Shown piece after piece: positions 33,388 through 63,487 of a stretch of DNA of 64,000 nt; the first letter of the stretch is position 1, and each line of letters opens with the position of its first letter. Under the pieces are notes generated by a model. That model made no database searches, was not told the DNA's origin, and saw only the letters and a program-made list of their open reading frames with translations. The stretch comes from Candidatus Nomurabacteria bacterium (GTDB taxonomy: Bacteria > Patescibacteriota > Minisyncoccia > Phycocordibacterales > UBA9973), in assembly GCA_023267435.1 (NCBI GenBank), contig JAHFNH010000001.1, positions 16,253-80,252 on the forward strand. Direction: 5' to 3'. A program made the translations under genes and the position numbers.

Positions 33388-33474
33388 ATAATTTTGTTTA
33401 TTACTAATTAAGACTTAACATACGAGAACCAGTTGCTAAGGCCTAACTACTAAATTAAATTAAACTAATAATTC

Positions 33475-33505
33475 AGCCTCTATGGCTGATTCGCCGATGA
33501 GGCGA
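33475..33505. repeat. GC-rich double-hairpin REP-like element, copy 1 (AGCC-TCTAT-GGCT + TCGCC-GATGA-GGCGA)
   Basis: Same two-hairpin architecture and loop sequences (TCTAC/TCTAT and GATGA) as the copies at 38179, 62274 and 63456. Confidence 0.55.
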
Positions 33506-33661
33506 AAATTAAATTGTTTATATCACAATCAGCAATATAAAAACTGCCAAAAGTGCAGTTACGTCTCATACTATCAAATTCAAAAATAAAGTCAAATCTG
33601 GAAAATATACAATAAAAAATCCCCAATCGTTATGATACGATTAGGGACATTTTAATAATAC

Positions 33662-34645
33662 TTAGTAAAAGAAACCTGAATTCCTTTTGGATTTGCTTAT
33701 CAAAGTACCGGGCAAATCTGGCTTCCAGAAATTTTTCACGCGAAGCGGTATCTCTTTATCTTTCAACTCTTTGAGAGTTTTCGGATGAACAAGACCATAA
33801 GCAGTACCATTCGGCTCAATCATTTCCTGAAAATGATCATAAGAAAGAGTTTTGAAAAACTTTGCATCCTTTCCAGCTTTTTTAGGATTTTCAAGTCCCA
33901 CACCCGGAACGTCTTTCCATAAAACAACTTCTGTGACTTCTTCTGCTTTTAATATTCCTGAATCAACAAGCAAAGAAGCGATGAGAGCTGCACTGTAATC
34001 ACTTCCCTCACGGCCAAGAGTCGTATAACCTTCAAAATAAAATTCTGGTTTTCTGTCTAAGCGAGCACCTGCAATAAATCCTTGAGTTATAACTGGTATT
34101 TCTTTTCTTAAACAATAAATCAAACCGCAATCAAAGAGAGTTTTCATAGATTCTTCCTTAGAGACAATGGCGTTACCAAAATCTAAATTGGTCCTGATAA
34201 AATTTTTAGCCGGTATGAGTTTGTTTGAATAATCATTATCAGCCAGAAAAGCGCTAACTATCCGAGATGAAATGATTTCACCTTGAGCCATAAGCTGATC
34301 ACGAACCATTTCAAAAGAATTACATTTATTGATTCCCACAAATGATTCAGTCAGATATTTCATAATCTCCTCAAATTTAAATGGAACATCTGGTCTTTTT
34401 TTGAAAAGTTCCTTAATTATTGGTTCATTATATTTTCTAACCAATTCAAGAGACTGCTCAAAAAGATCTGTGCGATTTTCAATAATACCGCGTGCAACAT
34501 TTTCAAGTGCATTTGTTGTTTTACCTATTGCTGAAACGACAACAATATTTGGTTTTTCTTTTTTTACAATTTTTCCGCATTGCCGAAGAGAAGGAACATC
34601 TTTCAAGGAAGCTCCTCCAAATTTATGAATTTTTATTTCTAACAT
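33662..34645 (-). CDS. aspartate kinase-like amino-acid-kinase catalytic domain, lacking ACT regulatory domains
   Basis: IHKFGGASL, IVVVSAIGKTTN, TTLGREGSDYSAALIASLL...LVHPKTL...GTLI align to the aspartokinase catalytic core; the protein ends about 15 aa after GTLI. Confidence 0.6.
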   Translation of the reverse strand: MLEIKIHKFGGASLKDVPSLRQCGKIVKKEKPNIVVVSAIGKTTNALENVARGIIENRTDLFEQSLELVRKYNEPIIKELFKKRPDVPFKFEEIMKYLTESFVGINKCNSFEMVRDQLMAQGEIISSRIVSAFLADNDYSNKLIPAKNFIRTNLDFGNAIVSKEESMKTLFDCGLIYCLRKEIPVITQGFIAGARLDRKPEFYFEGYTTLGREGSDYSAALIASLLVDSGILKAEEVTEVVLWKDVPGVGLENPKKAGKDAKFFKTLSYDHFQEMIEPNGTAYGLVHPKTLKELKDKEIPLRVKNFWKPDLPGTLISKSKRNSGFFY

Positions 34646-34818
34646 AGCTTGTTGTTTAAAGGGTTAGTATTCTGTTTTCTTAGATCTATTTTTTCTTAAC
34701 CTTACTTAAAATTTACAAACTTGTCAAACAATAACTTGCTTTTAAGGCACCTGAATAGTAAGGTAAAGAAAGAAAACAACTAGAAATCCGGTGTGTTCCG
34801 GTAAAAATAAATAGCACT

Positions 34819-35931
34819 TTGAAAATGAAACAACAATTAGCAGAATTCAAGGACATTGTGCCTATGATTCATCTCTTTTCAGGAATACTGAAAGGAACCA
34901 ATATTCTCTTTGATTTTGGTAATTCGCTCAAACTTTTGAAATATGAGGGAAATTCTCTCGAGGTGATGGAACCGAATACTTTCTCATACAGCAGACATGT
35001 TACCTTAATGACTTTTCCAAAAAGTTTTTTTGATAACAAAAAAACAAATGAGGAAAAATCTTTGCCAGCCAAACAAGAAAAAAACTTATTAAAGAAACTT
35101 CAAGCGAATATTTTAGGAACTCATATGCTTGATTTTAATTTGGATGAAGAATTTGGCATCTGGCTTCCTTCGTCATATGGCAAGGATCTATTTTTGACTA
35201 TTGCAGGAAAATATAAAGACGGCGTAGAAAAAATGGATAACCTTCCCATAATCACAATAGATCCAAGCCTTGTCGAAAAAAGATTGAAAGAAGTGACTCG
35301 TCCGGATTATTATGAAAATGTCATAGTTCCCTTTTTGGAAAATAAAAGTACAAAATTTAAAATACCTAAAGAGGAACAACCTTGGCATAATAAATTTTTT
35401 CAGACAAAGAAAGATTATGTCAGGCGAAGAATAACTGAATTGCCGAATGAATTAAAACATGGAGATTTTTTGTATGTCGGGTGTAAAGAAGAAGTATTTC
35501 TTCAGGGCTTTGTGGAAATGAACAATGAATATACGAATCGAAAAGATAACTGGTATTGCGGTGTAAGCACAAAACCAATTCTTTATTTTTCTAATAATTA
35601 TTTAGAGTTTATTTCTAAACATGATGCCGAAATGCCAAAGCATGAAGGTGAAGGTTCTGTAAATGTCGCGAATTATCGCACCTATGACATACCAGAGATG
35701 GGAGGTAAACGTTTTATCTTCCCACAAATAGGCAGAAACACTGATTGCAAAAATGGATTGTTTACAGGATATCCTGAATTAATTACAGGAAATCTGGACG
35801 AAGCCTTGAAACATTTTGCCAAAACGGATTTTGCTGAATTTTCTGATGTGGTAGAAAGGTATGCGAAAAATATGTCGTTCATACATCCATCATTGGAATA
35901 TGTAAAAAATGGAAGCAGGTATTTTTGCTAA
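34819..35931 (+). CDS. hypothetical protein (only sizeable plus-strand gene inside the str cluster)
   Basis: 370-aa ORF followed by a strong terminator. Confidence 0.5.
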   Translation: MKMKQQLAEFKDIVPMIHLFSGILKGTNILFDFGNSLKLLKYEGNSLEVMEPNTFSYSRHVTLMTFPKSFFDNKKTNEEKSLPAKQEKNLLKKLQANILGTHMLDFNLDEEFGIWLPSSYGKDLFLTIAGKYKDGVEKMDNLPIITIDPSLVEKRLKEVTRPDYYENVIVPFLENKSTKFKIPKEEQPWHNKFFQTKKDYVRRRITELPNELKHGDFLYVGCKEEVFLQGFVEMNNEYTNRKDNWYCGVSTKPILYFSNNYLEFISKHDAEMPKHEGEGSVNVANYRTYDIPEMGGKRFIFPQIGRNTDCKNGLFTGYPELITGNLDEALKHFAKTDFAEFSDVVERYAKNMSFIHPSLEYVKNGSRYFC

Positions 35932-35945
35932 ACACAAAAAAGCAA

Positions 35946-35973
35946 ATCGCCCTCGAGTAAACTCGAGGGCGAT
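35946..35973. terminator. bidirectional terminator (convergent with the fusA end)
   Basis: Perfect 12-bp stem ATCGCCCTCGAG-TAAA-CTCGAGGGCGAT with T-run. Confidence 0.75.
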
Positions 35974-35998
35974 TTTTTATTTTTAATAAATTTTTATT

Positions 35999-38146
35999 TT
36001 ATTTTCTTGCTGCGATGATTGTGTCTGCTACGTTTTGAGGCACAATATCGTATCTCAAGAATTCCATTGTGAATGACGCACGTCCTTCTGTCATAGATCT
36101 CAAGCCGGTCATGTAACCGAACATTTCAGAAAGAGGAACGACAGCTTTGATGACTTTACTCATACCACGCTCTTCCATACCTTCGATAAGTCCGCGCTTG
36201 GATGAAAGGTTTCCTGTGACGTCTCCCATGAATTTATCTGGAGTCACAACTTCAACTTTCATCATCGGCTCAAGGATAACTGGGTTAGCTCTTCGGCAAG
36301 CATCTTGCACAGCCATCGAAGCGGCGATTTTGAAAGCCATTTCGTTGGAGTCCACTTCGTGGTAAGAACCGTCCCAAAGTTCGACGGAAACATTTACCAT
36401 TTTAAATCCTGCCAAGATACCGCGATCCAAACCTTCTTTAAATCCTTTTTCACAGGCAGGAATATATTCTTGTGGAATAACTCCTCCTTTGATTGTGTTG
36501 ATGAATTCGAAACCAGGCGCTCTCTTTGTGTTCTTTGGTAGATCTTCCACTTCTTCTTTGGTCATAGCAACCATAGGCTTTACTTTGATCTTTACGTGAC
36601 CGTAGTTTCCACGTCCTCCGGATTGCTTGATGTATTTACCTTCAGCGTCAGCATTACCATTGATTGTCTCACGGTAGGCTACTTGAGGCTTACCAACATT
36701 GGCTTCCACCGTAAACTCTCTTTTCATACGATCAACAATAATTTCCAAGTGCAATTCTCCCATTCCAGCAATAATAGTCTCTCCTGTTTCTTGGTCGGTG
36801 GTCACACGGAAAGTAGGATCTTCTTGAGCCAAACGATTCAAAGCCATACCCATTTTTTCTTGGTCCGCTTTTGTCTTTGGTTCAATTCTTAGAGAGATAA
36901 CTGGTTCTGGGAAAACGATACGGTTCAACTCGATTGGATTTGCTTCATCACAAAGAGTATCAGAAGTGATAGTGTCTTTCAATCCGACAGCCGCTGCGAT
37001 TTCTCCAGCATAAACTTTCTTTACTTCTTCACGATCATTCGCATGCATACGCAAGATACGTCCGATTCTTTCTTTATTTCTGGTACGAGGATTATAAACA
37101 TAACTTCCGGCTTCAAGAGAACCTGAGTAAACACGGAAGAAAATAATTTGTCCGACGAATGGATCTGTCGCAACTTTGAAAGCCAAAGCTGAGAAAGGTT
37201 CTGTATCAGAAGCGTGACGAACTGCGGGTTCATCATTGTCTGGATTGATACCAGGGATAGGAGGAATATCTGTCGGAGCTGGAAGATAATCAACCACAGC
37301 ATCGAGCACAAGCTGAACACCTTTGTTTTTTAACGCAGAACCTGCGAAGACTGGGAAAACATTGTTGGCAATAACTGCCTTGCGAAGTGTCTTCTTAAGG
37401 ACATCCATACTAGGCTTCATTCCTTCAAGATATTCAGACATAAGGACATCGTCTTGTTCAACAATCTTCTCAACTAATTCTGCGTGATATTTTTCTGCAT
37501 CCGCTTTGTATTCTTCAGGAATGTCCTTTTCGATAACTTTGTTTCCCATGTCACCTTCGAAGTAATAAGCCTTCATACGTAGAAGATCCACGACACCTTC
37601 ATGCTTTTCTTCTAGTCCAATAGGAATCTGCATACGAACAGCTTTCTTTGTAAGTCTGTCTAAAATAGTTGCATAGGAGTGTTCAAAAGATGCACCAGTT
37701 CTGTCTAATTTGTTAATGAAACAAATACGAGGAACATTGGCTTCATCGGCATAGCGCCAGTTTGTTTCGGACTGAGGTTCTACTCCGGCCACGCCGTCGA
37801 AGACCACAACTGCACCGTCGAGCACGCGGAGAGAACGCTTCACTTCCACAGTGAAGTCGATGTGCCCAGGAGTATCAATAATATTGAAACGATGTTTCTT
37901 TGTTTTATCTGTCAGAGCGTAAGTAGGTGTCCAAAAACAAGTAACAGCGGCAGAAGTAATAGTGATACCTCTCTCTCTTTCTTGTTCCATCCAGTCTGTG
38001 GTGGTTTCCCCTTCGTGCACTTCACCTATTTTGTGTGATACGCCTGTATAAAAAAGCACGCGTTCAGTGGTGGTAGTCTTACCAGCATCGATGTGTGCAA
38101 TAATTCCAAAATTTCTTACTTTTTCTAACGGATAATCTCTTTCCAT
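35999..38146 (-). CDS. fusA: elongation factor G
   Basis: [13 protein letters not shown], 715 aa. Confidence 0.95.
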
Positions 38147-38178: not shown

Positions 38179-38210
38179 TCGCCTCATCGGCGATCCGCCG
38201 TAGAGGCGGA
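38179..38210. repeat. GC-rich double-hairpin REP-like element, copy 2 (TCGCC-TCATC-GGCGA + TCCGCC-GTAGA-GGCGGA)
   Basis: Reverse orientation of the consensus, upstream of fusA. Confidence 0.6.
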
Positions 38211-38336
38211 AAAATAAAAAAGGCATAGGCCTTCGTTACGAACAATATACGACATTTGCCCCAAATTTGCAAACCTCGTCGTAAACTTACGACAGGGTAA
38301 ATAAAAAAACCTCAACATATGTAAATGCAAAGGTTT

Positions 38337-38567
38337 TTAATAATACGATTCATTTCTTGAGTCCTTAAATAATTTAACAAAATAATCCTTGTTATCAGTA
38401 AAAGTATTATCTTCGTAACCCATTCCCGTTTCTACAAAAAAAGATTCTAAAATAACAAAATAATCTTCTGCCATAGAACCACCGAAGTTTTCAATATAAT
38501 ACTTACAATATCTCAAGAAAATACCTTCTACGTGATTATCACCTGGAATCAATCTAAATTTTTCCAT
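38337..38567 (-). CDS. hypothetical small protein (island gene 6)
   Basis: 76-aa ORF preceded by a cassette-type intergenic module. Confidence 0.4.
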   Translation of the reverse strand: MEKFRLIPGDNHVEGIFLRYCKYYIENFGGSMAEDYFVILESFFVETGMGYEDNTFTDNKDYFVKLFKDSRNESYY

Positions 38568-38624
38568 GTCCTTAAATTTAAGTTTATAAATATCTATTTA
38601 ATCTTAAATTACCATTTAAGGATA

Positions 38625-38695
38625 ATTAGTCAATGCTAAACAAAAAAGCGCCCTTACGATAATCTGTAAGGACACTTCGCTTTAAAACCATGGCG
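38625..38695 (-). repeat. cassette boundary module copy E (TTGACTAAT box + CCTTAC/GTAAGG terminator hairpin + CTTCGCTTAAAACCATGG box)
   Basis: Near-identical to 40214..40284. Confidence 0.6.
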
Positions 38696-38714
38696 TAGGT
38701 TTATCAGCATAAAT

Positions 38715-38927
38715 TTAATACTCGTATTCATAAAAAGAAAGGAAAATGAAAATTAACATAAATACTCCAATTAAACTTAAACCTGAAAGGATACTATTTT
38801 TAAAACAAAGAAAAATTCCTGCAATAAGTACAGAATACATAAATATCGCAATAATCTTTACCTTTGTTTGTCTTTCCAAATTCTTAATTTTTAAGAAAGG
38901 AAAAAGTAATATTTTAGATATTTTCAT
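38715..38927 (-). CDS. hypothetical small membrane protein, 2 TM (island gene 5)
   Basis: Two hydrophobic helices. Confidence 0.4.
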   Translation of the reverse strand: MKISKILLFPFLKIKNLERQTKVKIIAIFMYSVLIAGIFLCFKNSILSGLSLIGVFMLIFIFLSFYEYEY

Positions 38928-38931
38928 TGTC

Positions 38932-39618
38932 TTAAGTTTTTAGTAATGTAAATTGTGATCTGTATGATTCAAAAACTTCATAGGATTTCAAATAATCCAA
39001 GAAATAATTTATCATTTTAATTCTGTGATTTAATCTTTTGTAAGCTTTCAATTTTAGCGCGGAACGACAGTATGAAAGTTCTTGCTGAAGATAATTTTCA
39101 AATTTCTCAATTAAATCTTTACGCTTTTTAATTTCGGGACGTATTCCATTATAAAACAAAAAAGAATGCGCTAAATCAAATTTTATTTTTGAAATTCTTA
39201 ATTCCATCTCACAAGAAAAGTAAGCGACTTTTAGTTGAAAATTGGTACTACTTCTTGCAGAATATTCATCAATACCAAATGGGTCGAAATGAAAACCTGT
39301 TTTTGATTTGGTTTCATTCACAATACATTCCGTTTGTCTGTTTATTTTTTGTTTTCGTGTTTTTTTAAGATCTTCAATACACTGTTTTACATCTTTAATT
39401 GTATTCTCTATTTCTTCCATTTTTGCAATTGTTTCCGGCAAATAAAATTCATTCTTATTGATTTCAATAAAATCGATTAATTTACCTTTTTCTATTTCTG
39501 CAAGAATAAGTAAATCGATAAGCTTTTTAGATCTAAAAAAATACTCTAGTAAAAAGAGTAAGATATAAACGAACACTATAAATGCAGTAATTTTTATAAC
39601 TAAATAAAATATTTCCAT
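38932..39618 (-). CDS. hypothetical membrane-anchored coiled-coil protein (island gene 4)
   Basis: N-terminal TM (ITAFIVFVYILLFLL), K/E-rich helical remainder. Confidence 0.45.
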   Translation of the reverse strand: MEIFYLVIKITAFIVFVYILLFLLEYFFRSKKLIDLLILAEIEKGKLIDFIEINKNEFYLPETIAKMEEIENTIKDVKQCIEDLKKTRKQKINRQTECIVNETKSKTGFHFDPFGIDEYSARSSTNFQLKVAYFSCEMELRISKIKFDLAHSFLFYNGIRPEIKKRKDLIEKFENYLQQELSYCRSALKLKAYKRLNHRIKMINYFLDYLKSYEVFESYRSQFTLLKT

Positions 39619-39700
39619 TTTTCTTTGATTTTCAAGGAACGACTGGTTTGACTCCGTTCAAAATCACATTACCATTTTTAGACTTTTAGTCAAATAAAAA

Positions 39701-39723
39701 AGAGCTGAATATTTATCAGCTCT
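39701..39723 (-). terminator. terminator of island gene 3
   Basis: AGAGCTGA-ATATTTA-TCAGCTCT, 8-bp stem with T-run. Confidence 0.6.
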
Positions 39724-39730
39724 TTTACTC

Positions 39731-40150
39731 TTAGTGTACATCAAAAAATGATTCCTTTATTTTAGTAACAACACATTTACTTTTTCCTTCACCACAATCT
39801 TGTCCTGAATATGTACCGAACCAAATACCACCTTCTTTTTTATCAAAAACATACTCAATCACAGGACGACCAGTATAAGGCATTCCTTTAATTAAGTATT
39901 GTTTAGTAAAACTTAATTCGCTATCACTTAATCTAAAGTTAGTAATTTTTGATTCACCCCATTTATCGTTCATACTGCCACAAAAACCTTTTTCATTATC
40001 TTTTGATGAACCAACGATTCCATGAAACATTGCAAATATCATTGCATCTTTAATCGTTGCAACGATTCCGATACTTTGGTCATATGCTGTACCAAAAATT
40101 TTACCTTGCTGAAAAATAATTCCTTGCAAGGCATAGAGATTTCTTTCCAT
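39731..40150 (-). CDS. hypothetical protein (island gene 3)
   Basis: 139-aa ORF with conserved upstream module copy C. Confidence 0.5.
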   Translation of the reverse strand: MERNLYALQGIIFQQGKIFGTAYDQSIGIVATIKDAMIFAMFHGIVGSSKDNEKGFCGSMNDKWGESKITNFRLSDSELSFTKQYLIKGMPYTGRPVIEYVFDKKEGGIWFGTYSGQDCGEGKSKCVVTKIKESFFDVH

Positions 40151-40157
40151 ATTGTTT

Positions 40158-40284
40158 TTTGTTTTAAAAGAAGTTAATACTATATATTTACCCTCACACT
40201 ACCACTTTATGAAATTTAATCAATGCTAAATAAAAAAACGCCCTTACGATAACCTGTAAGGACGCTTCGCTTAAAACCATGGAC
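40158..40284 (-). repeat. cassette boundary module copy C (conserved leader + TTGATTAAAT box + terminator hairpin + CTTCGCTTAAAACCATGG)
   Basis: GTTTTAAAAGAAGTT...CCCTCACACTACCACTTT then ATTTAATCAATGCTAAATAAAAAAAC then GCCCTTACGATAACCTGTAAGGAC. Confidence 0.6.
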
Positions 40285-40313
40285 TGATTTTATAGCATAA
40301 AAATTTATTATTA

Positions 40314-41300
40314 CTACAACAAAGCTCCAAGTAATTCAACTTTTTTCTTTGGATTTAATCTTCCAACCGATTGACTGCCTTTTTGTATTTTTTCAAATAC
40401 AGATTCGTTTGATTTCTTGTCACTAAAAATCTTCCATTCTTCCGGCAAATAAAGACTTTTTATTGAAAAATTATTTTTATGAAGTTGAACAATTCGTTCC
40501 TTGCCTATTTTAGGAATTAGAATTTCTTGAGTCTTACCGTTAAACAGCCTAAGGAAACTAATCAGGTGCTCATCCTTTAGGATGCCTATATGTTCTGCAA
40601 TACAATTAAATACATCTTCATTAAAAGTATAATCCTTACAATACTCATCCTGAAAAATATTTTCTAATCCGTCACCTTCAAAAAGAGACTTCTGATACAA
40701 CCAAAGTATTTTCTTTAAATACTCATTCGAGACTAAATTAAGTGCCGGAAAAAATACTCTTGGATGAACTGAAGAAAATAGATGCATGGCCTCAAAAGGA
40801 AATTCCTTTTCTTTTTTGTATAAAAAAATATCCTTTTCTCTTGCCGAAGCCGGAGCTTTGACATTTAAACAGCTACCAAATAAAAAGTTGATAATTTCTA
40901 ATACCCGTTTCGGGGAAGCTACAGAAAAGTAACGCGATAAGTTATAACCATGACCATAATGATTTTGATCATTTTTCCATCTACCCCAAGCACCACCTAT
41001 ATCAACAGAATTTTTTGCAGCGATTCTGATTAAAAGATGCGGTGGTAAAATATCAAGTAATTCTTTTTTGATTCCTTCTCCAAGATCGAAATTAATACTC
41101 CATATACTAGAAAAATCGACAGTATCAGCATCGTATTTTACAAATTCCAGAAATTTTTCCGGTGTAAGCTTATTTAACACTTTAAGATAACGCTCACTAT
41201 CAAGATCCATAAGCTCTTGATGTAATGTTTTAATTGGGAGCTTTAACACAGAACCAATGAGTTCATTGATTACCTGTTCTTTCTTTGTTTGTTTTTTCAT
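40314..41300 (-). CDS. hypothetical protein (island gene 2)
   Basis: 328-aa ORF with conserved upstream module copy B. Confidence 0.5.
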   Translation of the reverse strand: MKKQTKKEQVINELIGSVLKLPIKTLHQELMDLDSERYLKVLNKLTPEKFLEFVKYDADTVDFSSIWSINFDLGEGIKKELLDILPPHLLIRIAAKNSVDIGGAWGRWKNDQNHYGHGYNLSRYFSVASPKRVLEIINFLFGSCLNVKAPASAREKDIFLYKKEKEFPFEAMHLFSSVHPRVFFPALNLVSNEYLKKILWLYQKSLFEGDGLENIFQDEYCKDYTFNEDVFNCIAEHIGILKDEHLISFLRLFNGKTQEILIPKIGKERIVQLHKNNFSIKSLYLPEEWKIFSDKKSNESVFEKIQKGSQSVGRLNPKKKVELLGALL

Positions 41301-41309
41301 ATCTATATT

Positions 41310-41420
41310 TAGTTTTAAAAGAAGTTTATATTTCGTTTATTTACCTTCACACTACCATTTTAAAATACTTTGTCAAAGTTACTTCAAACAAATAAAAAAG
41401 CCCTCACAATTTGTGAGGAC
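41310..41420 (-). repeat. cassette boundary module copy B
   Basis: TAGTTTTAAAAGAAGTTTATATTTCGTTTATTTACCTTCACACTACCATTTT, then TTTGTCAAAG box, A-run and hairpin CCTCACA-ATTT-GTGAGG. Confidence 0.6.
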
Positions 41421-41440
41421 TTAAAACAACTTTTGCTTTT

Positions 41441-42367
41441 TTATTTTAATGTATCATTTAATGTTTGAGAAAAATTAAATGAAACAACCATCTTCCCATC
41501 TTCAACCTCCACCTCCGAAAATACACTGGAAGAAAAATCAACCTTAAATTTTCCTTTGACTTCTTCCCAATTATCAGTGTTTAATATCTTCCAATAAGCA
41601 TCTTCACTTGAGTTGTGTTTAACCGAACAAGCAAGATATTTATCTGTACATTTTACACTCATAATAATTTCACCTTTTTCAGACAAAGAAAGGTATGATT
41701 TCGTTTCAAGATTATAGACGAAAAAATGACGATTAAAATCCGATCCGTATCTAAGTACTACATACTTTGGAGCGACAAAAAAGAAAACATTGGTTTCTTT
41801 TGCGGATCCTTCTTTTTGGAGTTTCACAGGAAGTGGAATAGTTAAAAAAGAATTTTCTGCAATAAAGTAAACCATCTTGTCAGGAGCACGGTATCCATGA
41901 TCAGGAGAAAGGAAAAGTACTTTTTCCCCGTTAAATATTTCTGTCTTTTCACATTTTTTAAAGAACCCTACACCATTCGCCTCTAGGATATGGTTTGGCA
42001 CAAAACGATCCTCGTTAAATAAGTAGGTTGCATAATGGTCATGTGAGCTTCCTTCTACTGAAAGCTGAATAAAATCTTCAGTAAGTGAAAAAATCTTTCC
42101 TTCATAAAAATCAAAGGAATTTTTACACTTTAACCATTTACCTTCTCCGCGAAGATAAACACAGAAAATATCCTTAACGGTAGTGCATTGCACAATTTTT
42201 TCAAAAACTTTTATTTCTTTAAATCCCTGAGGACTGCCATAAGGACCTTCAATAATAGGTTTTGATTCTTCAATCGAAAAATAAAGCAATTCATTAGAAT
42301 CTTTAAATAAAAGAATTCCTTGTTCCTCTTTTGAGAAAGCCAAGGTTAATACAGTTGTTGTTTCCAT
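41441..42367 (-). CDS. hypothetical beta-rich protein (island gene 1)
   Basis: 308-aa ORF with conserved upstream module copy A. Confidence 0.5.
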   Translation of the reverse strand: METTTVLTLAFSKEEQGILLFKDSNELLYFSIEESKPIIEGPYGSPQGFKEIKVFEKIVQCTTVKDIFCVYLRGEGKWLKCKNSFDFYEGKIFSLTEDFIQLSVEGSSHDHYATYLFNEDRFVPNHILEANGVGFFKKCEKTEIFNGEKVLFLSPDHGYRAPDKMVYFIAENSFLTIPLPVKLQKEGSAKETNVFFFVAPKYVVLRYGSDFNRHFFVYNLETKSYLSLSEKGEIIMSVKCTDKYLACSVKHNSSEDAYWKILNTDNWEEVKGKFKVDFSSSVFSEVEVEDGKMVVSFNFSQTLNDTLK

Positions 42368-42374
42368 TTTTATT

Positions 42375-42469
42375 TAGTTTTAAAAGAAGTTTATATTCCG
42401 TTTATTTATCTTCACACTACCACTTTCAGATATTTAGTCAACAAAAACAAAATCCACCGATGAGGCGGA
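42375..42469 (-). repeat. cassette boundary module copy A (conserved leader + TTTAGTCAA box + half-REP hairpin TCCACC-GATGA-GGCGGA)
   Basis: TAGTTTTAAAAGAAGTTTATATTCCGTTTATTTATCTTCACACTACCACTTT is about 90% identical to copy B. Confidence 0.6.
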
Positions 42470-42490
42470 TTAGAGTTTGTATTTTTAGTA

Positions 42491-42961
42491 TTACCAAGCG
42501 AAGTGAGCGAAGGCTTTGTTGGCTTCTGCCATTTTGTGTGTGTCTTCTCTCTTCTTGATGGCAGCACCTTCGTTCTTTGAAGCTGCGATTAATTCATCAG
42601 CAAGTTTCAAATGCATTGGCTGGCCTTTTTTGGAACGAGCAGCGTCACGAATCCATCTCATAGCTAATGCAAGACGACGTTCAGGGCGAACTTCACGAGG
42701 AACCTGATAGTTTGCGCCTCCGATTCTCTTTGAACGAACTTCAGTCAATGGACCAGCGTTCTTCATTGCAAGATCGAAAATTTCCAAAGGATTAGGATTG
42801 CCTGTCTTTTCTTTTATAACATCAAAAGCTTTGTACATAACTTTTCTAGCAGTCTCTTTCTTTCCAGACCACATGGTGTAGTTAATAAACTTCTCAAGCT
42901 TTTGAGAGTTATAAACGAAATCAGGTCCTACGATATTTCTATTTTTTACTTTTCTTCGCAT
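42491..42961 (-). CDS. rpsG: 30S ribosomal protein S7
   Basis: S7 family pattern; follows rpsL. Confidence 0.9.
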   Translation of the reverse strand: MRRKVKNRNIVGPDFVYNSQKLEKFINYTMWSGKKETARKVMYKAFDVIKEKTGNPNPLEIFDLAMKNAGPLTEVRSKRIGGANYQVPREVRPERRLALAMRWIRDAARSKKGQPMHLKLADELIAASKNEGAAIKKREDTHKMAEANKAFAHFAW

Positions 42962-42995: not shown

Positions 42996-43421
42996 CTATT
43001 TCTTTCCGTCTTTCTTAGGTCTCTTGTTTCCGTACAGGGAACGTCCTTGTCTTCTCTTCTCAACTCCTTGAGTATCGAGAACACCGCGAACAATGTGATA
43101 TCTTACTCCGATCAAGTCTTTCACACGTCCTCCGCGCAACATAACCACTGAGTGTTCTTGTAGATTGTGTCCTTCTCCTGGAATATAAGCTGTGACTTCC
43201 ATACCATTAGTCAAACGTACGCGAGCAATCTTTCGGAGCGCTGAGTTAGGCTTCTTTGGAGTAGTGGTAGTAACTTTCGTGCAAACTCCTCTTTTGAAAG
43301 GAGCTGGGAAATATACCGGCTTGTTTTTTAAGACATTGAATCCGCGAGCCAAGGCAACCGTCTTGGATTTTCGGCGAGTTATGATTCTACTTTTTTTAAC
43401 TAATTGATTTATTGTTGGCAT
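42996..43421 (-). CDS. rpsL: 30S ribosomal protein S12
   Basis: [12 protein letters not shown]... N-terminus (internal Met of the longer ORF), PNSALRK motif. Confidence 0.9.
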
Positions 43422-43511
43422 ATTGTTGATTTTAAAAGAATAAAGTGAACATAGTCGCTCCATTCCTTAGTTTTCTAAATCTACTACAAGCTTTGAAAAA
43501 TTGCAAATTTC

Positions 43512-45980
43512 TTATATGTTAAATACTCTGTTTAATACTCCATGAATGATTTTGAAGTAATTTGATGTGTAAACGACGGAGTATGACGCATCATCATTTT
43601 TCTTCTCAATTTTCACATAATATGTGCCGTTTGGAACAAGCATGTAATATCTTCCCATTTCATCGGTCACCTTGTGTGCGATTTCCACATTGGTATCGAC
43701 AGAAAATACGCGAATGAAGGCAAATGACAACGGGGATCCATCTTTATCAAAGAGGCGTCCTTTGGCTTTCAATTTGAAGCTTGTTCTGCGCAAGATAAAC
43801 ATAGCGACATACAAGCCGAGCACAACCATATTGTATTTTTCAGGAGAAATGATGAACGCACCGATAGCCACAGTAAATCCGAAACCGAAGAAGAAGTTCG
43901 AAACACGAGCGATCATCAATTCTTTCTTGGAATAGAACTGGAAGAGTTTCTTTTTATTCTTAGCAAATTCATTCCAATCAAAACCGATAGGATCCAACGG
44001 AATATTTTTCACAATCACTTCCCCTTCAGTGATGTTCATATAATCTCCGAAATAAAGATCCTGATAAAATTCATCACGGAAATGTTTTGAAAGAACATCG
44101 GATGGGAAAAGATAGTTTGTCTTTCTTGGCACGACTTTATAAACTCCCGGCTTGACCAAGAATCCATATCGTCCATCGATATCAGTAATAGAAGAATCAA
44201 CTTCCACGCCTTCAAGGTTGCGCAGAGAAACATAAACCGGATCGAGTGGCTGCTTGGTAATGCTGTCGTAGACAGTTCCCCATTTGTTTACTCTCTTTCT
44301 CAATCCAAAAGCCGTCAAGAACAGAGACCAGAGACGGAAAGGAATAAGTATTAATTCTGGGAAAGCTAATGGGTTCAAGAAGAGCGCTGTCGCCAAGGAA
44401 AGTATCGAACCGACGATCACCGAGATAGTAGCTGCGATCTTAAGTCCGAGATTTAAATTTTGCACAAGTGCTGGCGGGAAGAAATTAAGAACTGGAGGTG
44501 GCAATAAACTCTGATTACATCCGGGTGCATTTGGATTTGTAGCACAATCAATCTGAGTGCTTAAAACTTGTATACAGCCTGGAAGGTTTGGGTTGGTCGT
44601 ACAGTTTACAGTGATACAACTCGGATCAGTTGGATTAGTCTCACAAAAAGGTTTCATGACACAAAGCGGGTCATTTATAGAATAGTGTATATCAAAAGGA
44701 CAAAGAGCTATAGGATTACAGATAGGATTATTTGAATTGTATGTTGGCAATCCTTGAGTACACTGACAAACAGCTGTGGTTGGATCAGTCGTACAAGAAT
44801 CATTACTCTCATCGTTTAATGATTGATCGTACACTCCGTTCGTCCAACAGCCCGGATCGTTTCGATCAACCAAGCCGTCACCGTTATTTCCATTTGAACC
44901 GTTGTCTGCTCCACCTGGAGGTGGTGGAGGAATATCTACTCCGTTGGAACCGTTGTCTATGCCGTCATTACATTGAGTCGCTGTAGCTGCACAAGGTAAG
45001 TTGCCGACATTCACAGTAATATCTTTTTCATTAGTTACAAGTCCGATTGAACCAGTAGCTTTAGCTTTAATAGAAATGGTTTGGTCTGCACTACAAGATA
45101 CTGTCTGGTACCAGGGTATTTCATAATTTCCAGTCGTTGCGTTATAAGTTCCTGAAACCCAAGCTCCATTATCAACTGAAAATTCCACAGTATCGGCTGT
45201 GCCTGATGTTACTTTGGCTTGTATTGTTAAATTAGCTAATGGCACAGGTGGAACATCGGGAGGAGTGTAGATAGCATCAGCTGATACGAAACTGTCACTA
45301 TCATGTAGATTAACAAAATCAACAACCAAGTTATTGGTTACTGGAATACACTCACTAGGATTTAAAGGATTCACCATATAACCCACAGGTGGTGCATTTG
45401 TAAATGGACTGCCTTGCATACCCTGGGCTGTTAAATTAGGACATAGATCAACTGGAGTAGGAGAAAGAACGGGACCACCACCACTAACAACAGTAGGACG
45501 CCAGCTAGTTTTAACACACTGTCCGGCTACTTTTCCAGGAGCAGAACAATCAAATTTTATCCAACCGTCATTTTGACTCCAAACATTACCATTGAATTCG
45601 CCTGTAGTCGTATCGATCGAAACACCGCCATTCGTCGGAGCAAAATTTATCCAACCAGCATTTTGACTCCAAGCATAGCCAGACAAAATTCCGTTTATAG
45701 TGTTAGACACACCGCCATTAGTTGGATTTAAATTTATCCAACCGACAACATCTCCCCAAGCATATCCGGTAATACTAGAATCTGTTATTTGAACATTACA
45801 ATTGGTACAGTTAAAATTTATTGTTCCGTTATTGGTATCTATAAATTTTGCAGTGTTATAAGTGGCATCAATGCTGCCATTATTAGCCTGCACATGAAAA
45901 GCGAAAAGAGTAAAAACCAAAATTGGTATTAAAAAATATGTTTTTCGCAAAAATTTATTCATAGTTTTAATTGATATCAT
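43512..45980 (-). CDS. large surface protein: signal peptide, GYAW(G/S)xxxGWI(N/K)F repeats, Cys-rich Pro/Asn module, several TM helices interspersed with carboxypeptidase-regulatory-like beta domains
   Basis: Signal peptide LIPILVFTLFAFHVQA. Three tandem repeats (GYAWGDVVGWINLNPTNGGVS / GYAWSQNAGWINFAPTNGGVS / GNVWSQNDGWIKFDC). Cys-rich CQCTQGLPTYNSNNPICNPIALCPFD...; TM segments near residues 500-560 and 690-730; GRYGFLVKPGVYKVV and GRYYMLVPNGTYYVKI motifs. Confidence 0.6.
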   Translation of the reverse strand: MISIKTMNKFLRKTYFLIPILVFTLFAFHVQANNGSIDATYNTAKFIDTNNGTINFNCTNCNVQITDSSITGYAWGDVVGWINLNPTNGGVSNTINGILSGYAWSQNAGWINFAPTNGGVSIDTTTGEFNGNVWSQNDGWIKFDCSAPGKVAGQCVKTSWRPTVVSGGGPVLSPTPVDLCPNLTAQGMQGSPFTNAPPVGYMVNPLNPSECIPVTNNLVVDFVNLHDSDSFVSADAIYTPPDVPPVPLANLTIQAKVTSGTADTVEFSVDNGAWVSGTYNATTGNYEIPWYQTVSCSADQTISIKAKATGSIGLVTNEKDITVNVGNLPCAATATQCNDGIDNGSNGVDIPPPPPGGADNGSNGNNGDGLVDRNDPGCWTNGVYDQSLNDESNDSCTTDPTTAVCQCTQGLPTYNSNNPICNPIALCPFDIHYSINDPLCVMKPFCETNPTDPSCITVNCTTNPNLPGCIQVLSTQIDCATNPNAPGCNQSLLPPPVLNFFPPALVQNLNLGLKIAATISVIVGSILSLATALFLNPLAFPELILIPFRLWSLFLTAFGLRKRVNKWGTVYDSITKQPLDPVYVSLRNLEGVEVDSSITDIDGRYGFLVKPGVYKVVPRKTNYLFPSDVLSKHFRDEFYQDLYFGDYMNITEGEVIVKNIPLDPIGFDWNEFAKNKKKLFQFYSKKELMIARVSNFFFGFGFTVAIGAFIISPEKYNMVVLGLYVAMFILRRTSFKLKAKGRLFDKDGSPLSFAFIRVFSVDTNVEIAHKVTDEMGRYYMLVPNGTYYVKIEKKNDDASYSVVYTSNYFKIIHGVLNRVFNI

Positions 45981-48586: not shown

Positions 48587-48751
48587 ATATTTTTTTGTGT
48601 CATGGATTTCAATCTCCAGACACAAAAGTCATAGATGATTTCCACAATCGTCAGTCTCGTTATTAATAGAGGGCTCGTTGGCCCAAGTGAGATTGATAAG
48701 TTAAGAATAGCATTTATATAAAACATTGTCAAATATAAAAAATAAAAGGGC

Positions 48752-62273: not shown

Positions 62274-62305
62274 CCGCCTCATCAGCGGATGCGCCGTAGA
62301 GGCGC
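62274..62305. repeat. GC-rich double-hairpin REP-like element, copy 4 (CCGCCTCATCAGCGG + ATGCGCCGTAGAGGCGC)
   Basis: 32-nt near-perfect inverted copy of the element at 63456..63487. Confidence 0.65.
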
Positions 62306-62306
62306 A

Positions 62307-62636
62307 TTATTTTGCTCGTGTACCAGCAGGAATTTCATCATTTGGTTCCAGTAAAGAAAATTTTCCGTCTTCAGTCGAGACAGCTACGATCATCCCATTA
62401 CTTTCAAATCCGCGAATCATTCGTGGTTCTAGGTTCGCAACAAACATACATTTCTTTCCAACAAGTACAGAACAATCTGGAAAATAAAGAGATATACCAG
62501 AAACAATTTGTCTTGGATGTTCTTCACCTAAATCTACTGAAAGTTTCAACAACTTATCAGTATCAGGGATTTTTTCGGCGGACAAAATCTTACCCACAGC
62601 CATTTCAACTTTTTTAAAATCTTCAAAAGAAATCAT
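62307..62636 (-). CDS. stand-alone tRNA-binding domain protein (CsaA/Trbp111/MetRS-C-terminal-like)
   Basis: FKKVEMAVGKILSAEKIPDTDKLLKLSVDLGEE..RQIVSGI...GKKCMFVANLEPRMIRGFESNGMIVA. Confidence 0.7.
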   Translation of the reverse strand: MISFEDFKKVEMAVGKILSAEKIPDTDKLLKLSVDLGEEHPRQIVSGISLYFPDCSVLVGKKCMFVANLEPRMIRGFESNGMIVAVSTEDGKFSLLEPNDEIPAGTRAK

Positions 62637-63455: not shown

Positions 63456-63487
63456 GCGCCTCTACGGCGCATCCGCCGATGAGGCGG
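63456..63487. repeat. GC-rich double-hairpin REP-like element, copy 5 (consensus orientation GCGCC-TCTAC-GGCGC + CCGCC-GATGA-GGCGG)
   Basis: Both stems perfect; the cleanest copy in the window. Confidence 0.65.

What the first reader, a model, noticed from the sequence alone, without database searches (positions are those of the whole stretch)
38337..42490. 4.1-kb island of six uncharacterized genes wedged between rpsG and fusA in the str operon
rpsL-rpsG-fusA-tuf is one of the most conserved gene strings in bacteria. Here rpsG (3' end 42491) and fusA (start 38146) are separated by six co-oriented ORFs of 76, 70, 228, 139, 328 and 308 aa with no recognisable domains. Two are small membrane proteins, one is a TM-anchored coiled-coil, and three are soluble beta-rich proteins. 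Each has its own terminator hairpin. An island at this location would be co-transcribed or insulated from extremely highly expressed translation genes. The content (small membrane protein + soluble proteins, each individually terminated) looks like an accessory cassette array such as defence, toxin/immunity or niche factors, not like a ribosomal gene.
Basis: partly seen in the sequence, partly recalled or inferred. Interest (0 to 1): 0.75.

Follow-up and report, generated by a model that had tools for sequence, protein, structure and literature searches.

The report
Swappable gene slot beside EF-G gene
In this tiny uncultured bacterium (Patescibacteria, Nomurabacteria-like), the boundary between ribosomal protein S7 and elongation factor G is a gene-swapping hot spot, here holding six real but function-unknown lineage-restricted genes, each cassette with its own strong promoter and terminator.

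Summary
Six co-oriented ORFs (308, 328, 139, 228, 70, 76 aa) lie between rpsG and fusA, in DNA of 29.6% GC against 36.3% for the window. They match no Pfam, NCBIfam, PHROG or PADLOC model.

They are genes, not junk. dN/dS is about 0.2, codon usage is native and frame-specific, and homologues keep their length.

They form five self-contained transcription units. Each has a near-identical strong promoter (TTGAC-N14-TGGTAGTGT) and an intrinsic terminator. rpsG has its own terminator and fusA its own promoter, so the island lies between operons rather than inside one.

Among 55 close relatives, 27 carry 0.4-5.3 kb of almost entirely different genes at this site and 25 carry none. The fusA-tuf junction varies too, while rpsL-rpsG and tuf-rpsJ never do. 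The few homologues of the 308 and 328 aa proteins whose neighbours could be read all sit at this same site, in other combinations. A profile of the shared 75-nt promoter/5'UTR module hits almost only this site across all held sequence.

I read it as a mobile-element-free flexible-genome hot spot. The function of the six proteins is unknown. Relatives' cassettes include toxin-antitoxin parts and nucleases, which hints at conflict functions without proving them.

The parts
42491..42961 (-). rpsG (ribosomal protein S7), left conserved flank
   Evidence: ORF; Pfam Ribosomal_S7 on the same contig; 97% identical to L086.
42451..42471 (-). Intrinsic terminator after rpsG (8-bp stem, T-run). The hairpin has the same sequence as the REP-like hairpin CCGCCTCATCGGTGG.
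42365..42441 (-). Junction module 1: -35 TTGACT, extended -10 TGGTAGTGT, 5'UTR with AACTTCTTTTAAAAC, up to the ATG
   Evidence: nhmmer E 1.2e-16. Homology with L086 runs from rpsL through this module and stops about 12 nt into the ORF.
41441..42367 (-). Cassette 1: 308-aa acidic, soluble, probably beta-rich protein of unknown function
   Evidence: One homologue, P0002 (60%), also directly after rpsG. dN/dS 0.185. The AF2 model is unusable (pLDDT 42.5).
41398..41422 (-). Terminator of cassette 1 (11-bp stem)
41298..41376 (-). Junction module 2 (88% identical to module 1 over 76 nt)
   Evidence: (D4).
40314..41300 (-). Cassette 2: 328-aa basic all-alpha solenoid protein from a small family of unknown function
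   Evidence: Homologues in L086, L087 and L172 all lie between rpsG and fusA. dN/dS 0.18-0.21.
40235..40268 (-). Terminator of cassette 2 (13-bp stem), homologous to the terminator at 38645-38678
   Evidence: (D1, 81% over 103 nt).
40148..40223 (-). Junction module 3
39731..40150 (-). Cassette 3: 139-aa soluble protein of unknown function
   Evidence: (one homologue, P0009, 55%).
39698..39726 (-). Terminator of cassette 3
39666..39693 (-). Promoter 4 (TTGACT-N14-TGGTAATGT), followed by a different 5'UTR
38932..39618 (-). Cassette 4a: 228-aa protein with an N-terminal TM anchor (residues 1-31) and a helical remainder
   Evidence: No homologue in any held locus. Singleton cluster.
38715..38927 (-). 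Cassette 4b: 70-aa two-TM ORF starting 4 nt after the stop of 4a (same unit); coding status least certain
   Evidence: The public gene call took the antisense 65-aa ORF, and the exact sequence is not in the protein collection.
38645..38678 (-). Terminator of the 228/70 unit
38606..38633 (-). Promoter 5 (TTGACT-N14-TGGTAATTT)
38337..38567 (-). Cassette 5: 76-aa acidic soluble protein of unknown function
38302..38336 (-). Weak hairpin plus T-run after the 76-aa gene; the right edge of the variable DNA. Homology with L086 resumes at 38311.
38244..38272 (-). Dedicated fusA promoter (TTGCAA-N17-TATATT)
   Evidence: Present in 30 of 33 relatives with a gap above 700 bp and 0 of 17 with a gap of 40 bp or less.
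38219..38234 (-). Terminator-like hairpin in the fusA leader; a candidate attenuator
   Evidence: Present at the same place in 5 of 6 relatives with different stem sequences.
35999..38146 (-). fusA (EF-G), right conserved flank

Best explanation
The 4.1-kb block is the current filling of a flexible-genome hot spot at the rpsG|fusA boundary of a Nomurabacteria-like Patescibacterium.

In this lineage the classical str operon is cut into separate transcription units. rpsL-rpsG ends in a terminator, and fusA has its own promoter and leader. This leaves a permissive inter-operon gap bounded by two extremely conserved genes.

The gap holds five plug-in expression cassettes. Each has a strong sigma-70 promoter with an extended -10, an A/U-rich leader without a Shine-Dalgarno sequence, one or two ORFs, and an intrinsic terminator. 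The cassettes can therefore be expressed strongly without reading into fusA or being read from rpsG.

I infer that content turns over by homologous recombination. One route uses the conserved flanks, probably after DNA uptake. The other uses the 75-100-nt terminator/promoter junction modules repeated between cassettes, which would allow deletion, duplication and reshuffling. No integrase or transposase is involved.

The six proteins are real, lineage-restricted accessory proteins:
- four appear cytoplasmic (an alpha-solenoid scaffold, a probably beta-rich protein, and two small soluble proteins);
- two form a membrane pair.
Their biochemical role is unknown. My best guess, at low confidence, is strain-specific conflict or interaction functions.

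Shown: anatomy, variability, site specificity, purifying selection. Inferred: expression level, recombination mechanism, function.
For: Anatomy:
- Five promoters of the form TTGAC-N14-TGGTA[AG]T[GT]T are the only matches in the 64 kb, and each lies just upstream of a cassette. They belong to the same class as the tuf promoter.
- Strong hairpin/T-run terminators follow rpsG and four of the units.

Site variability among loci with at least 89% identical S7 N-terminal segments:
- rpsG-fusA gap of 400 bp or more in 27 of 55;
- fusA-tuf gap of 400 bp or more in 27 of 33;
- rpsL-rpsG 0 of 76 and tuf-rpsJ 0 of 30.

Content diversity:
- The 201 ORFs from the two gaps fall into 142 clusters with the window's query proteins, 118 of them singletons.
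- Nearest neighbours by fusA share 0-1 families.
- The gaps are low in GC, 0.26-0.38 in nearly all.

Population signal:
- 15 of 80 contigs stop within 40 bp of the rpsG end.
- Contig L081 consists of the island alone.

Site fidelity:
- Homologues of the 308- and 328-aa proteins always lie between rpsG and fusA, in different combinations.
- The junction-module profile hits only this gap across the window and about 170 held loci, apart from one marginal hit just after fusA in L034.
- Homology with the closest relative, L086, breaks at the first cassette's start codon and resumes just after the last cassette.

Permissive boundary: the dedicated fusA promoter is present in 30 of 33 large-gap relatives and 0 of 17 tight-gap relatives.

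Real genes: dN/dS is 0.18-0.21, against 0.03-0.06 for the flanks, and codon usage is native.

No mobile-element signature: there is no integrase among the Pfam hits, no phage or viral match, and no tRNA nearby.

Established framework: HGT hot spots without mobile elements, flanked by recombining core genes (PMC5635113). Patescibacteria genomic islands are enriched in translation genes and novel sequences (PMC12455944).
Against: - No expression data, so promoter strength and terminator efficiency rest on consensus matches only.
- Recombination at the flanks or at the modules was not demonstrated. The relatives compared are different species (fusA nucleotide identity 77-88%). Strain-level turnover is therefore inferred only from contig breaks.
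- dS of the shared 328 cassette against L086 (1.06) is not far from that of the flanks (0.5-0.6). Vertical descent with rapid divergence and differential loss explains the shared cassettes as well as exchange does.
- Module similarity could partly reflect selection for a good promoter and leader rather than common descent.
- The functions of all six proteins remain unassigned.
Confidence: 0.7

Rival explanations
1. These are lineage-specific but vertically inherited genes that work with the translation apparatus, for example ribosome- or EF-G-associated factors. They would sit next to rpsG and fusA because of a functional link, evolve fast, and be lost in some species.
For: - Family members are found only at this site.
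- The promoters are of the same strong class as the tuf promoter.
- Codon usage is native.
- dS is of the same order as the flanks.
Against: - 25 of 55 close relatives have no insertion at all.
- Content differs almost completely between nearest neighbours.
- The 328 family has only 11 full-length clusters among 1.84 billion representatives.
- Cassettes in relatives are toxin-antitoxin parts, nucleases and phosphatases, not translation factors.
Confidence: 0.12
2. The block is a remnant of a mobile element: moron-like cassettes left by a prophage, or a degraded integrative element or integron-like array.
For: The promoter-ORF-terminator architecture resembles phage morons (my own knowledge). 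GC is low. GIY-YIG nucleases occur at the same site in four relatives.
Against: - No integrase, transposase, capsid or terminase gene in the island or in relatives' gaps.
- No PHROG hit below E 0.004.
- No tblastn hit in 50,697 phage records for the 308- and 328-aa proteins.
- No hit in IMG/VR for four families, and no BFVD fold match.
- No flanking direct repeats other than the junction modules, and no tRNA nearby.
- Codon usage matches the host.
Confidence: 0.08
3. The block is a dedicated defence or toxin-immunity island, meaning the six proteins form one or more anti-phage or toxin-antitoxin systems.
For: - The same site in relatives holds HicA, Polbeta-NTase with NTase_sub_bind (MNT/HEPN type), NYN, DUF2283 and Cas2-like/PaaX_M proteins.
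- Turnover is fast.
- The small acidic 76-aa protein and the membrane pair would fit antitoxin or abortive-infection designs (inference only).
Against: - No PADLOC hit for any of the six.
- No nuclease, ATPase or toxin fold was recognised. The 328-aa protein is a non-enzymatic solenoid.
- Each gene has its own promoter and terminator, which is unusual for multi-gene defence operons.
- Most cassettes in relatives also lack any defence annotation.
Confidence: 0.3
4. The block is non-functional AT-rich spacer DNA whose ORFs are spurious.
For: It has the lowest GC of the window. It has no database annotation. All six proteins are singletons at 90% identity.
Against: - Open frames of 308 and 328 codons at 30% GC are expected with a probability near 1e-11.
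- dN/dS is about 0.2, with conserved length at 50-63% identity.
- Codon usage is frame-specific.
- Promoters and terminators are precisely placed.
Confidence: 0.02

Closest known systems
HGT hot spots / flexible genomic islets between core genes without mobile elements (Oliveira, Touchon, Cury & Rocha 2017, PMC5635113)
   Same: The variable DNA occupies a fixed interval between two core genes. Gene turnover is rapid and content is strain- or species-specific. No recognisable mobile element is present. The flanks are suited to homologous recombination.
   Different: The site lies inside what is normally the str operon, on both sides of fusA. The cassettes share a conserved promoter/5'UTR junction module. 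The organism is a reduced-genome Patescibacterium, and almost all of the content is ORFan.
Phage 'morons' (autonomous promoter-ORF-terminator units in prophages)
   Same: Each cassette is a self-contained transcription unit bounded by a promoter and an intrinsic terminator. It is inserted between functionally linked genes and has lower GC.
   Different: There is no prophage context and no phage homologues. The cassettes are arrayed in tandem and share one promoter module.
Integron gene-cassette arrays
   Same: A tandem array of unrelated, mostly single-gene cassettes sits at one fixed site, separated by short related junction sequences, and most encode unknown functions.
   Different: There is no IntI integrase, no attI or attC sites, and no single common Pc promoter. 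Here every unit carries its own promoter, and the hairpins are terminators followed by T-runs.
Defence islands
   Same: The locus is variable, and relatives carry toxin-antitoxin and nuclease genes at the same site.
   Different: None of the six proteins matches a known defence family. The genes are individually transcribed rather than organised as system operons.
Mycoplasma variable lipoprotein loci (vlp/vsa/vsp) with conserved 5' expression regions (my own knowledge)
   Same: Tandem genes carry highly similar upstream expression regions and divergent coding parts, in a small AT-rich genome.
   Different: The proteins here are unrelated to one another and lack lipoprotein signal peptides. There are no phase-variation tracts or site-specific invertase.

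Membership tests
HGT hot spot / flexible genomic islet between core genes | The same interval between orthologous core genes holds different gene content in related genomes | tested here: met
   The rpsG-fusA gap ranges from 4 to 5265 bp in 55 close relatives. 118 of 142 ORF clusters are singletons. Nearest neighbours share 0-1 families.
HGT hot spot / flexible genomic islet between core genes | Variation is concentrated at this interval compared with neighbouring intervals | tested here: met
   rpsL-rpsG 0 of 76 and tuf-rpsJ 0 of 30 gaps are 400 bp or more, against 27 of 55 and 27 of 33 for the two junctions flanking fusA.
HGT hot spot / flexible genomic islet between core genes | Evidence of horizontal origin or recombination at the flanks | tested here: inconclusive
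   GC is low, but codon usage is native. dS of the shared cassette is comparable to the flanks. No recombination test was possible on these data.
Integron cassette array | IntI tyrosine recombinase with an attI site next to the array | tested here: not met
   No recombinase domain in the island, in its flanks, or in 76 gap ORFs from relatives.
Integron cassette array | attC recombination sites between promoterless cassettes | tested here: not met
   The inter-cassette hairpins are GC stems followed by T-runs, that is terminators, and each is followed by a full promoter.
Prophage moron | Location inside a prophage or phage genome | tested here: not met
   The flanks are rpsG and fusA. There are no phage genes and no phage or viral homologues.
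Prophage moron | An autonomous promoter-ORF-terminator unit | tested here: met
   (sequence consensus only, no expression data).
Known anti-phage defence systems (PADLOC-DB v2) | At least one protein matches a defence-system HMM | tested here: not met
   No family at E of 1 or below for any of the six proteins.
Toxin-antitoxin module | An adjacent co-transcribed pair with a recognisable toxin fold or family | tested here: not met
   No toxin or antitoxin Pfam/NCBIfam hit. The only co-transcribed pair (228 + 70 aa) consists of membrane proteins without homologues.
MgtE_N / FliG-type armadillo-like helical domain (for the 328-aa protein) | Significant sequence or structure match to the domain | tested here: inconclusive
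Canonical str operon (rpsL-rpsG-fusA-tuf co-transcribed) | rpsG and fusA adjacent, with no intervening terminator or promoter | tested here: not met
   The terminator lies at 42451-42471 and the fusA promoter at 38244-38272. tuf is further separated from fusA by two more genes and has its own promoter at 33568-33595.

The most novel reading that the evidence does not exclude
The rpsG|fusA site of this Patescibacteria clade may be an integrase-free, integron-like expression array. In this reading a portable 75-100-nt terminator/promoter/5'UTR junction module serves as the expression signal. It also serves as the homology substrate that lets unrelated ORFs be captured, shuffled and lost. The array would keep a rotating set of highly expressed strain-specific proteins, for phage defence or for dealing with the host cell of an episymbiont, next to the translation genes.
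Probability: 0.2. Interest if true: 0.7.

Novelty: new variant of a known kind. Interest (0 to 1): 0.5.

Why it matters
Patescibacteria have tiny genomes, yet a large share of their genes is of unknown function and differs between strains. This locus gives a precise, easily found address where that variable fraction concentrates: the DNA between S7 and EF-G, and between EF-G and EF-Tu.

The flanks are universal marker genes, so the site can be retrieved from any metagenome or amplified with conserved primers. That makes strain-level accessory content trackable without cultivation.

The shared promoter/leader module offers a candidate strong expression signal for a phylum with almost no genetic tools.

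The locus also shows that the 'invariant' str operon has been split into separate units in this lineage. This matters for operon-based annotation. It may also explain why genomic-island predictors flag translation genes in these genomes (PMC12455944).

Tried and rejected
- **Domain searches.** Pfam, NCBIfam, PHROGs and PADLOC scans of all six proteins found nothing above threshold.
- **PDB sequence and profile searches.** The only sub-0.01 hits were the 328 family against R.HinP1I (E 0.0066) and the 139-aa pair against a two-component propeller repeat (E 0.002, 28 residues).
  - The first is rejected because the matched region is all-helical in the AF2 model, whereas the enzyme core is a beta-sheet.
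  - The second is rejected as a short beta-hairpin motif.
- **Structure of the 308-aa protein.** pLDDT was 42.5, so it was not used for fold search.
- **afdb50 fold search.** The library was unavailable.
- **Phage origin.** No hits in INPHARED, IMG/VR or BFVD.
- **Rfam scan of 31-46.5 kb.** Only sub-threshold chance matches.
- **HMMER profile of the 328 family against 1.84 billion representatives.** It found 11 full-length relatives, all without Pfam domains. One further hit, P0021, is a repetitive artefact.
- **Context of the 139-aa homologue P0009.** Its contigs are too short to be informative.
- **A 5'-terminal stem (GAAG/CUUC) in the shared leader.** I dropped this because those bases probably lie upstream of the transcription start.
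- **REP-like hairpins as island boundaries.** The copy in the fusA leader is absent from L086, and the motif is not conserved in relatives. It is therefore not the cause of the hot spot.
- **Literature.** I found no description of an rpsG-fusA hot spot in Patescibacteria.

Full report
**1. What is there**

On the minus strand the window reads rpsL (42996-43463), rpsG (42491-42961), six co-oriented ORFs, then fusA (35999-38146). The ORFs are:
- 308 aa (41441-42367)
- 328 aa (40314-41300)
- 139 aa (39731-40150)
- 228 aa (38932-39618)
- 70 aa (38715-38927)
- 76 aa (38337-38567)

The gene identities of the flanks come from precomputed Pfam hits on the same public contig. The block has 29.6% GC against 36.3% for the window and contains the three lowest-GC kilobases of the 64 kb. 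None of the six proteins reaches threshold in Pfam, PADLOC, PHROGs or NCBIfam. The organism is a Patescibacterium close to Candidatus Nomurabacteria: EF-G is 91% identical to GW2011_GWA2_40_9, and all the best hits are Paceibacteria-type MAGs.

**2. The ORFs are genes**

- Open frames of more than 300 codons at about 30% GC are not expected by chance (about 1e-11 by my calculation).
- All six co-oriented ORFs score best in frame 0 under a codon model trained on the window's housekeeping genes. The antisense 65-aa ORF that the public annotation called in place of the 70-aa ORF does not.
- Against their rare homologues, the 328- and 308-aa genes give dN/dS of 0.18-0.21. That is clearly purifying, but about four times more relaxed than fusA and rpsG (0.03-0.06).

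**3. Anatomy**

The island consists of five autonomous transcription units.
- *Promoters.* Five promoter-like sites of the form TTGAC-N14-TGGTA[AG]T[GT]T are the only matches in the whole window, and each lies 38-48 nt upstream of a cassette's ATG. They are canonical strong sigma-70 promoters with an extended -10, the same class that precedes tuf (33568-33595) and a few other housekeeping genes.
- *Shared leader.* Three of the five also share the leader ...TAAATA...AACTTCTTTTAAAAC.... Modules 1 and 2 are 88% identical over 76 nt.
- *Terminators.* Hairpin/T-run terminators follow rpsG (42451-42471) and four of the units. The terminator count in the region is about twice the shuffled expectation. 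The hairpin after the 76-aa gene is weak.
- *Shared unit.* The 228- and 70-aa genes are 4 nt apart and share one promoter and one terminator.
- *fusA.* It has its own promoter (38244-38272) and a leader containing a terminator-like hairpin (38219-38234).

The block is therefore insulated on both sides. It lies between transcription units, not inside one.

**4. Comparison with relatives**

*Species representatives.* In 80 GTDB species representatives, none of the six proteins has a tblastn hit. The rpsG-fusA gap ranges from 3 bp to 7.4 kb, and the fusA-tuf gap from 88 bp to 6.7 kb.

*Close metagenomic relatives.* A metagenome scan with the S7 N-terminus returned 80 loci at 89% identity or more. 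Gap sizes at four junctions were:

| Junction | Gaps of 400 bp or more | Note |
|---|---|---|
| rpsL-rpsG | 0 of 76 | |
| rpsG-fusA | 27 of 55 | 25 of 55 are 150 bp or less |
| fusA-tuf | 27 of 33 | |
| tuf-rpsJ | 0 of 30 | |

So exactly the two junctions flanking fusA are hot spots.

*Population signal.* Fifteen of the 80 contigs end within 40 bp of the rpsG stop. A second public contig of this strain, L081, consists of the island alone. This is the pattern assemblers produce where co-existing strains differ.

*Content.* The gaps are low in GC in nearly all relatives, and their content is extremely diverse.
- The 201 gap ORFs fall into 142 clusters together with the window's query proteins, 118 of them singletons.
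- Nearest neighbours by fusA share 0-1 families, and island-bearing and island-free loci are interleaved.
- Pfam on 76 rpsG-fusA gap ORFs from relatives finds GIY-YIG (4), PaaX_M/Cas2-like (4), HicA (2), Polbeta nucleotidyltransferase (2) with NTase_sub_bind, NYN, DUF2283, 2H phosphoesterase, PNP_UDP_1, His_Phos_1 and others. It finds no integrase or transposase, and most ORFs have no hit.

**5. Rarity and site fidelity of the cassettes**

In 5.8 billion clustered proteins, the 308-aa protein has one homologue (60%), the 328-aa protein four (50-63%), and the 139-aa protein one (55%). A full HMMER profile search of 1.84 billion representatives finds only 11 full-length members of the 328 family.

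Every 308- or 328-family homologue with readable context lies between rpsG and fusA, in a different combination each time:
- L082: S7 | 308 | 132 | EF-G
- L086, the closest relative (EF-G 96%, S7 97%): S7 | 331 | His_Phos_1 | 230 (multi-TM) | 64 | EF-G, with tuf adjacent
- L087: 335 | 228 (multi-TM) | EF-G
- L172: 89 | PaaX_M | 367 | EF-G

. The contigs carrying the 139-aa homologue are too short to show its neighbours.

DNA homology with L086 runs from rpsL through the first promoter module and stops about 12 nt into the first ORF. It resumes at 38311, just after the last cassette. The junction modules of the two genomes also cross-match at 73-88% over roughly 30-110 nt.

An nhmmer profile of the 77-nt module, searched over the window and about 170 loci, hits only rpsG-fusA gaps, including cassettes not used to build it. 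The exceptions are one short island fragment and one marginal hit just after fusA in L034.

**6. Why this site**

A conserved dedicated fusA promoter (TTGCAAAAAA...TATATATT) tracks gap size closely:

| rpsG-fusA gap | Relatives with the fusA promoter |
|---|---|
| 40 bp or less | 0 of 17 |
| 41-200 bp | 6 of 11 |
| 201-700 bp | 7 of 8 |
| more than 700 bp | 30 of 33 |

The hot spot therefore coincides with splitting of the str operon into separate units, which makes the junction permissive for insertions.

[quoted passage not shown] It also fits the report that genomic islands predicted in groundwater Patescibacteria are enriched in translation genes and carry novel sequences (PMC12455944). 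The recombination step itself is inferred, not shown.

**7. What the proteins are**

- *308 aa.* It could not be modelled (pLDDT 42.5), although the C-terminal half is predicted as beta-strands.
- *Others.* The 228-aa protein has one N-terminal TM anchor. The 70-aa ORF has two hydrophobic segments. The 76-aa protein is acidic and soluble. None has a signal peptide-like N-terminus apart from that anchor.
- *No external matches.* No phage, viral or PDB relative was found.

Function is therefore unassigned. The context at the same site in relatives (toxin-antitoxin parts, nucleases) makes conflict or strain-specific interaction functions the leading guess, which I put at about 0.3.

**8. Verdict**

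- The accessory-cassette interpretation is supported in its structural sense but not in its functional sense.
- The surprise value is reduced because the rpsG-fusA adjacency is routinely broken in this clade, and the site is an inter-operon boundary.
- What is new is the delineation of a two-sided hot spot around fusA in Patescibacteria, and of a conserved promoter/leader junction module shared by unrelated cassettes.
- I class it as a new variant of a known kind (an HGT hot spot) and give it an interest score of 0.5.

Noticed in passing
window 33473-33504, 38180-38208, 42454-42468 (half copy), 62292-62320, 63457-63487: A REP-like twin hairpin (CGCCTCATCGGCG followed by CGCCGTAGAGGCG or a variant) recurs in intergenic DNA in both orientations. 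The copy in the fusA leader is absent from the closest relative, L086, so it looks like a small mobile palindromic element.
   Followed up: partly
window 38219-38234 (fusA leader); L086, L087, L147, L162, L082 at the aligned position: A terminator-like GC hairpin plus T-run lies between the fusA promoter and the fusA start codon. Five of six relatives carry one at the same place with different stem sequences. This is a candidate attenuator or leader regulating EF-G. It gave no Rfam match.
   Followed up: partly
window 33388-35998: The fusA-tuf junction is a second hot spot. Here it holds an opposite-strand 370-aa ORFan (34819-35931) and a 327-aa aspartokinase-like AA_kinase protein lacking the C-terminal part of full-length enzymes (33662-34645). 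Ten relatives instead carry a recurrent gene set of about 345/363/206/264 aa there.
   Followed up: partly
L125:1636-2682: One metagenomic relative has two tandem rpsG copies with 100% identical proteins, separated by about 105 nt, before fusA. This is either a real duplication at the hot spot or an assembly artefact.
   Followed up: partly
window 43512-45980: The gene upstream of rpsL encodes an 822-aa multi-TM protein with CarboxypepD_reg domains. In relative L082 the same position holds a 1718-aa FG-GAP/DUF7933 protein whose C-terminal ~316 residues are 39% identical to it. This neighbour is also fast-evolving and probably a surface protein.
   Followed up: no
window 48704-48732 and downstream leader; about 25 relatives (e.g. 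L098:6899, L120:6019): The DEAD-box helicase gene has a strong extended -10 promoter. In relatives it also has a highly conserved leader (ATCATTCTC...TTGGGAGTGACCC) just before the ATG, a possible cis-regulatory RNA.
   Followed up: no
L004:14300, L096:13783, L098:17653 and about 12 other relatives: A gene of about 115 aa downstream of the S10 region has a conserved promoter followed by a hairpin plus T-run leader (AAGCTCGTTAGGAGCTTTTTGTTT). This looks like a ribosomal-protein-type attenuator.
   Followed up: no
L001:6329-10065: The closest GTDB relative has an array of about ten 60-100-aa ORFs between fusA and tuf. It has its own repeated terminator plus TTGACA...TAGGTT junction module, so it shares the cassette architecture but uses a different module sequence.
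   Followed up: partly
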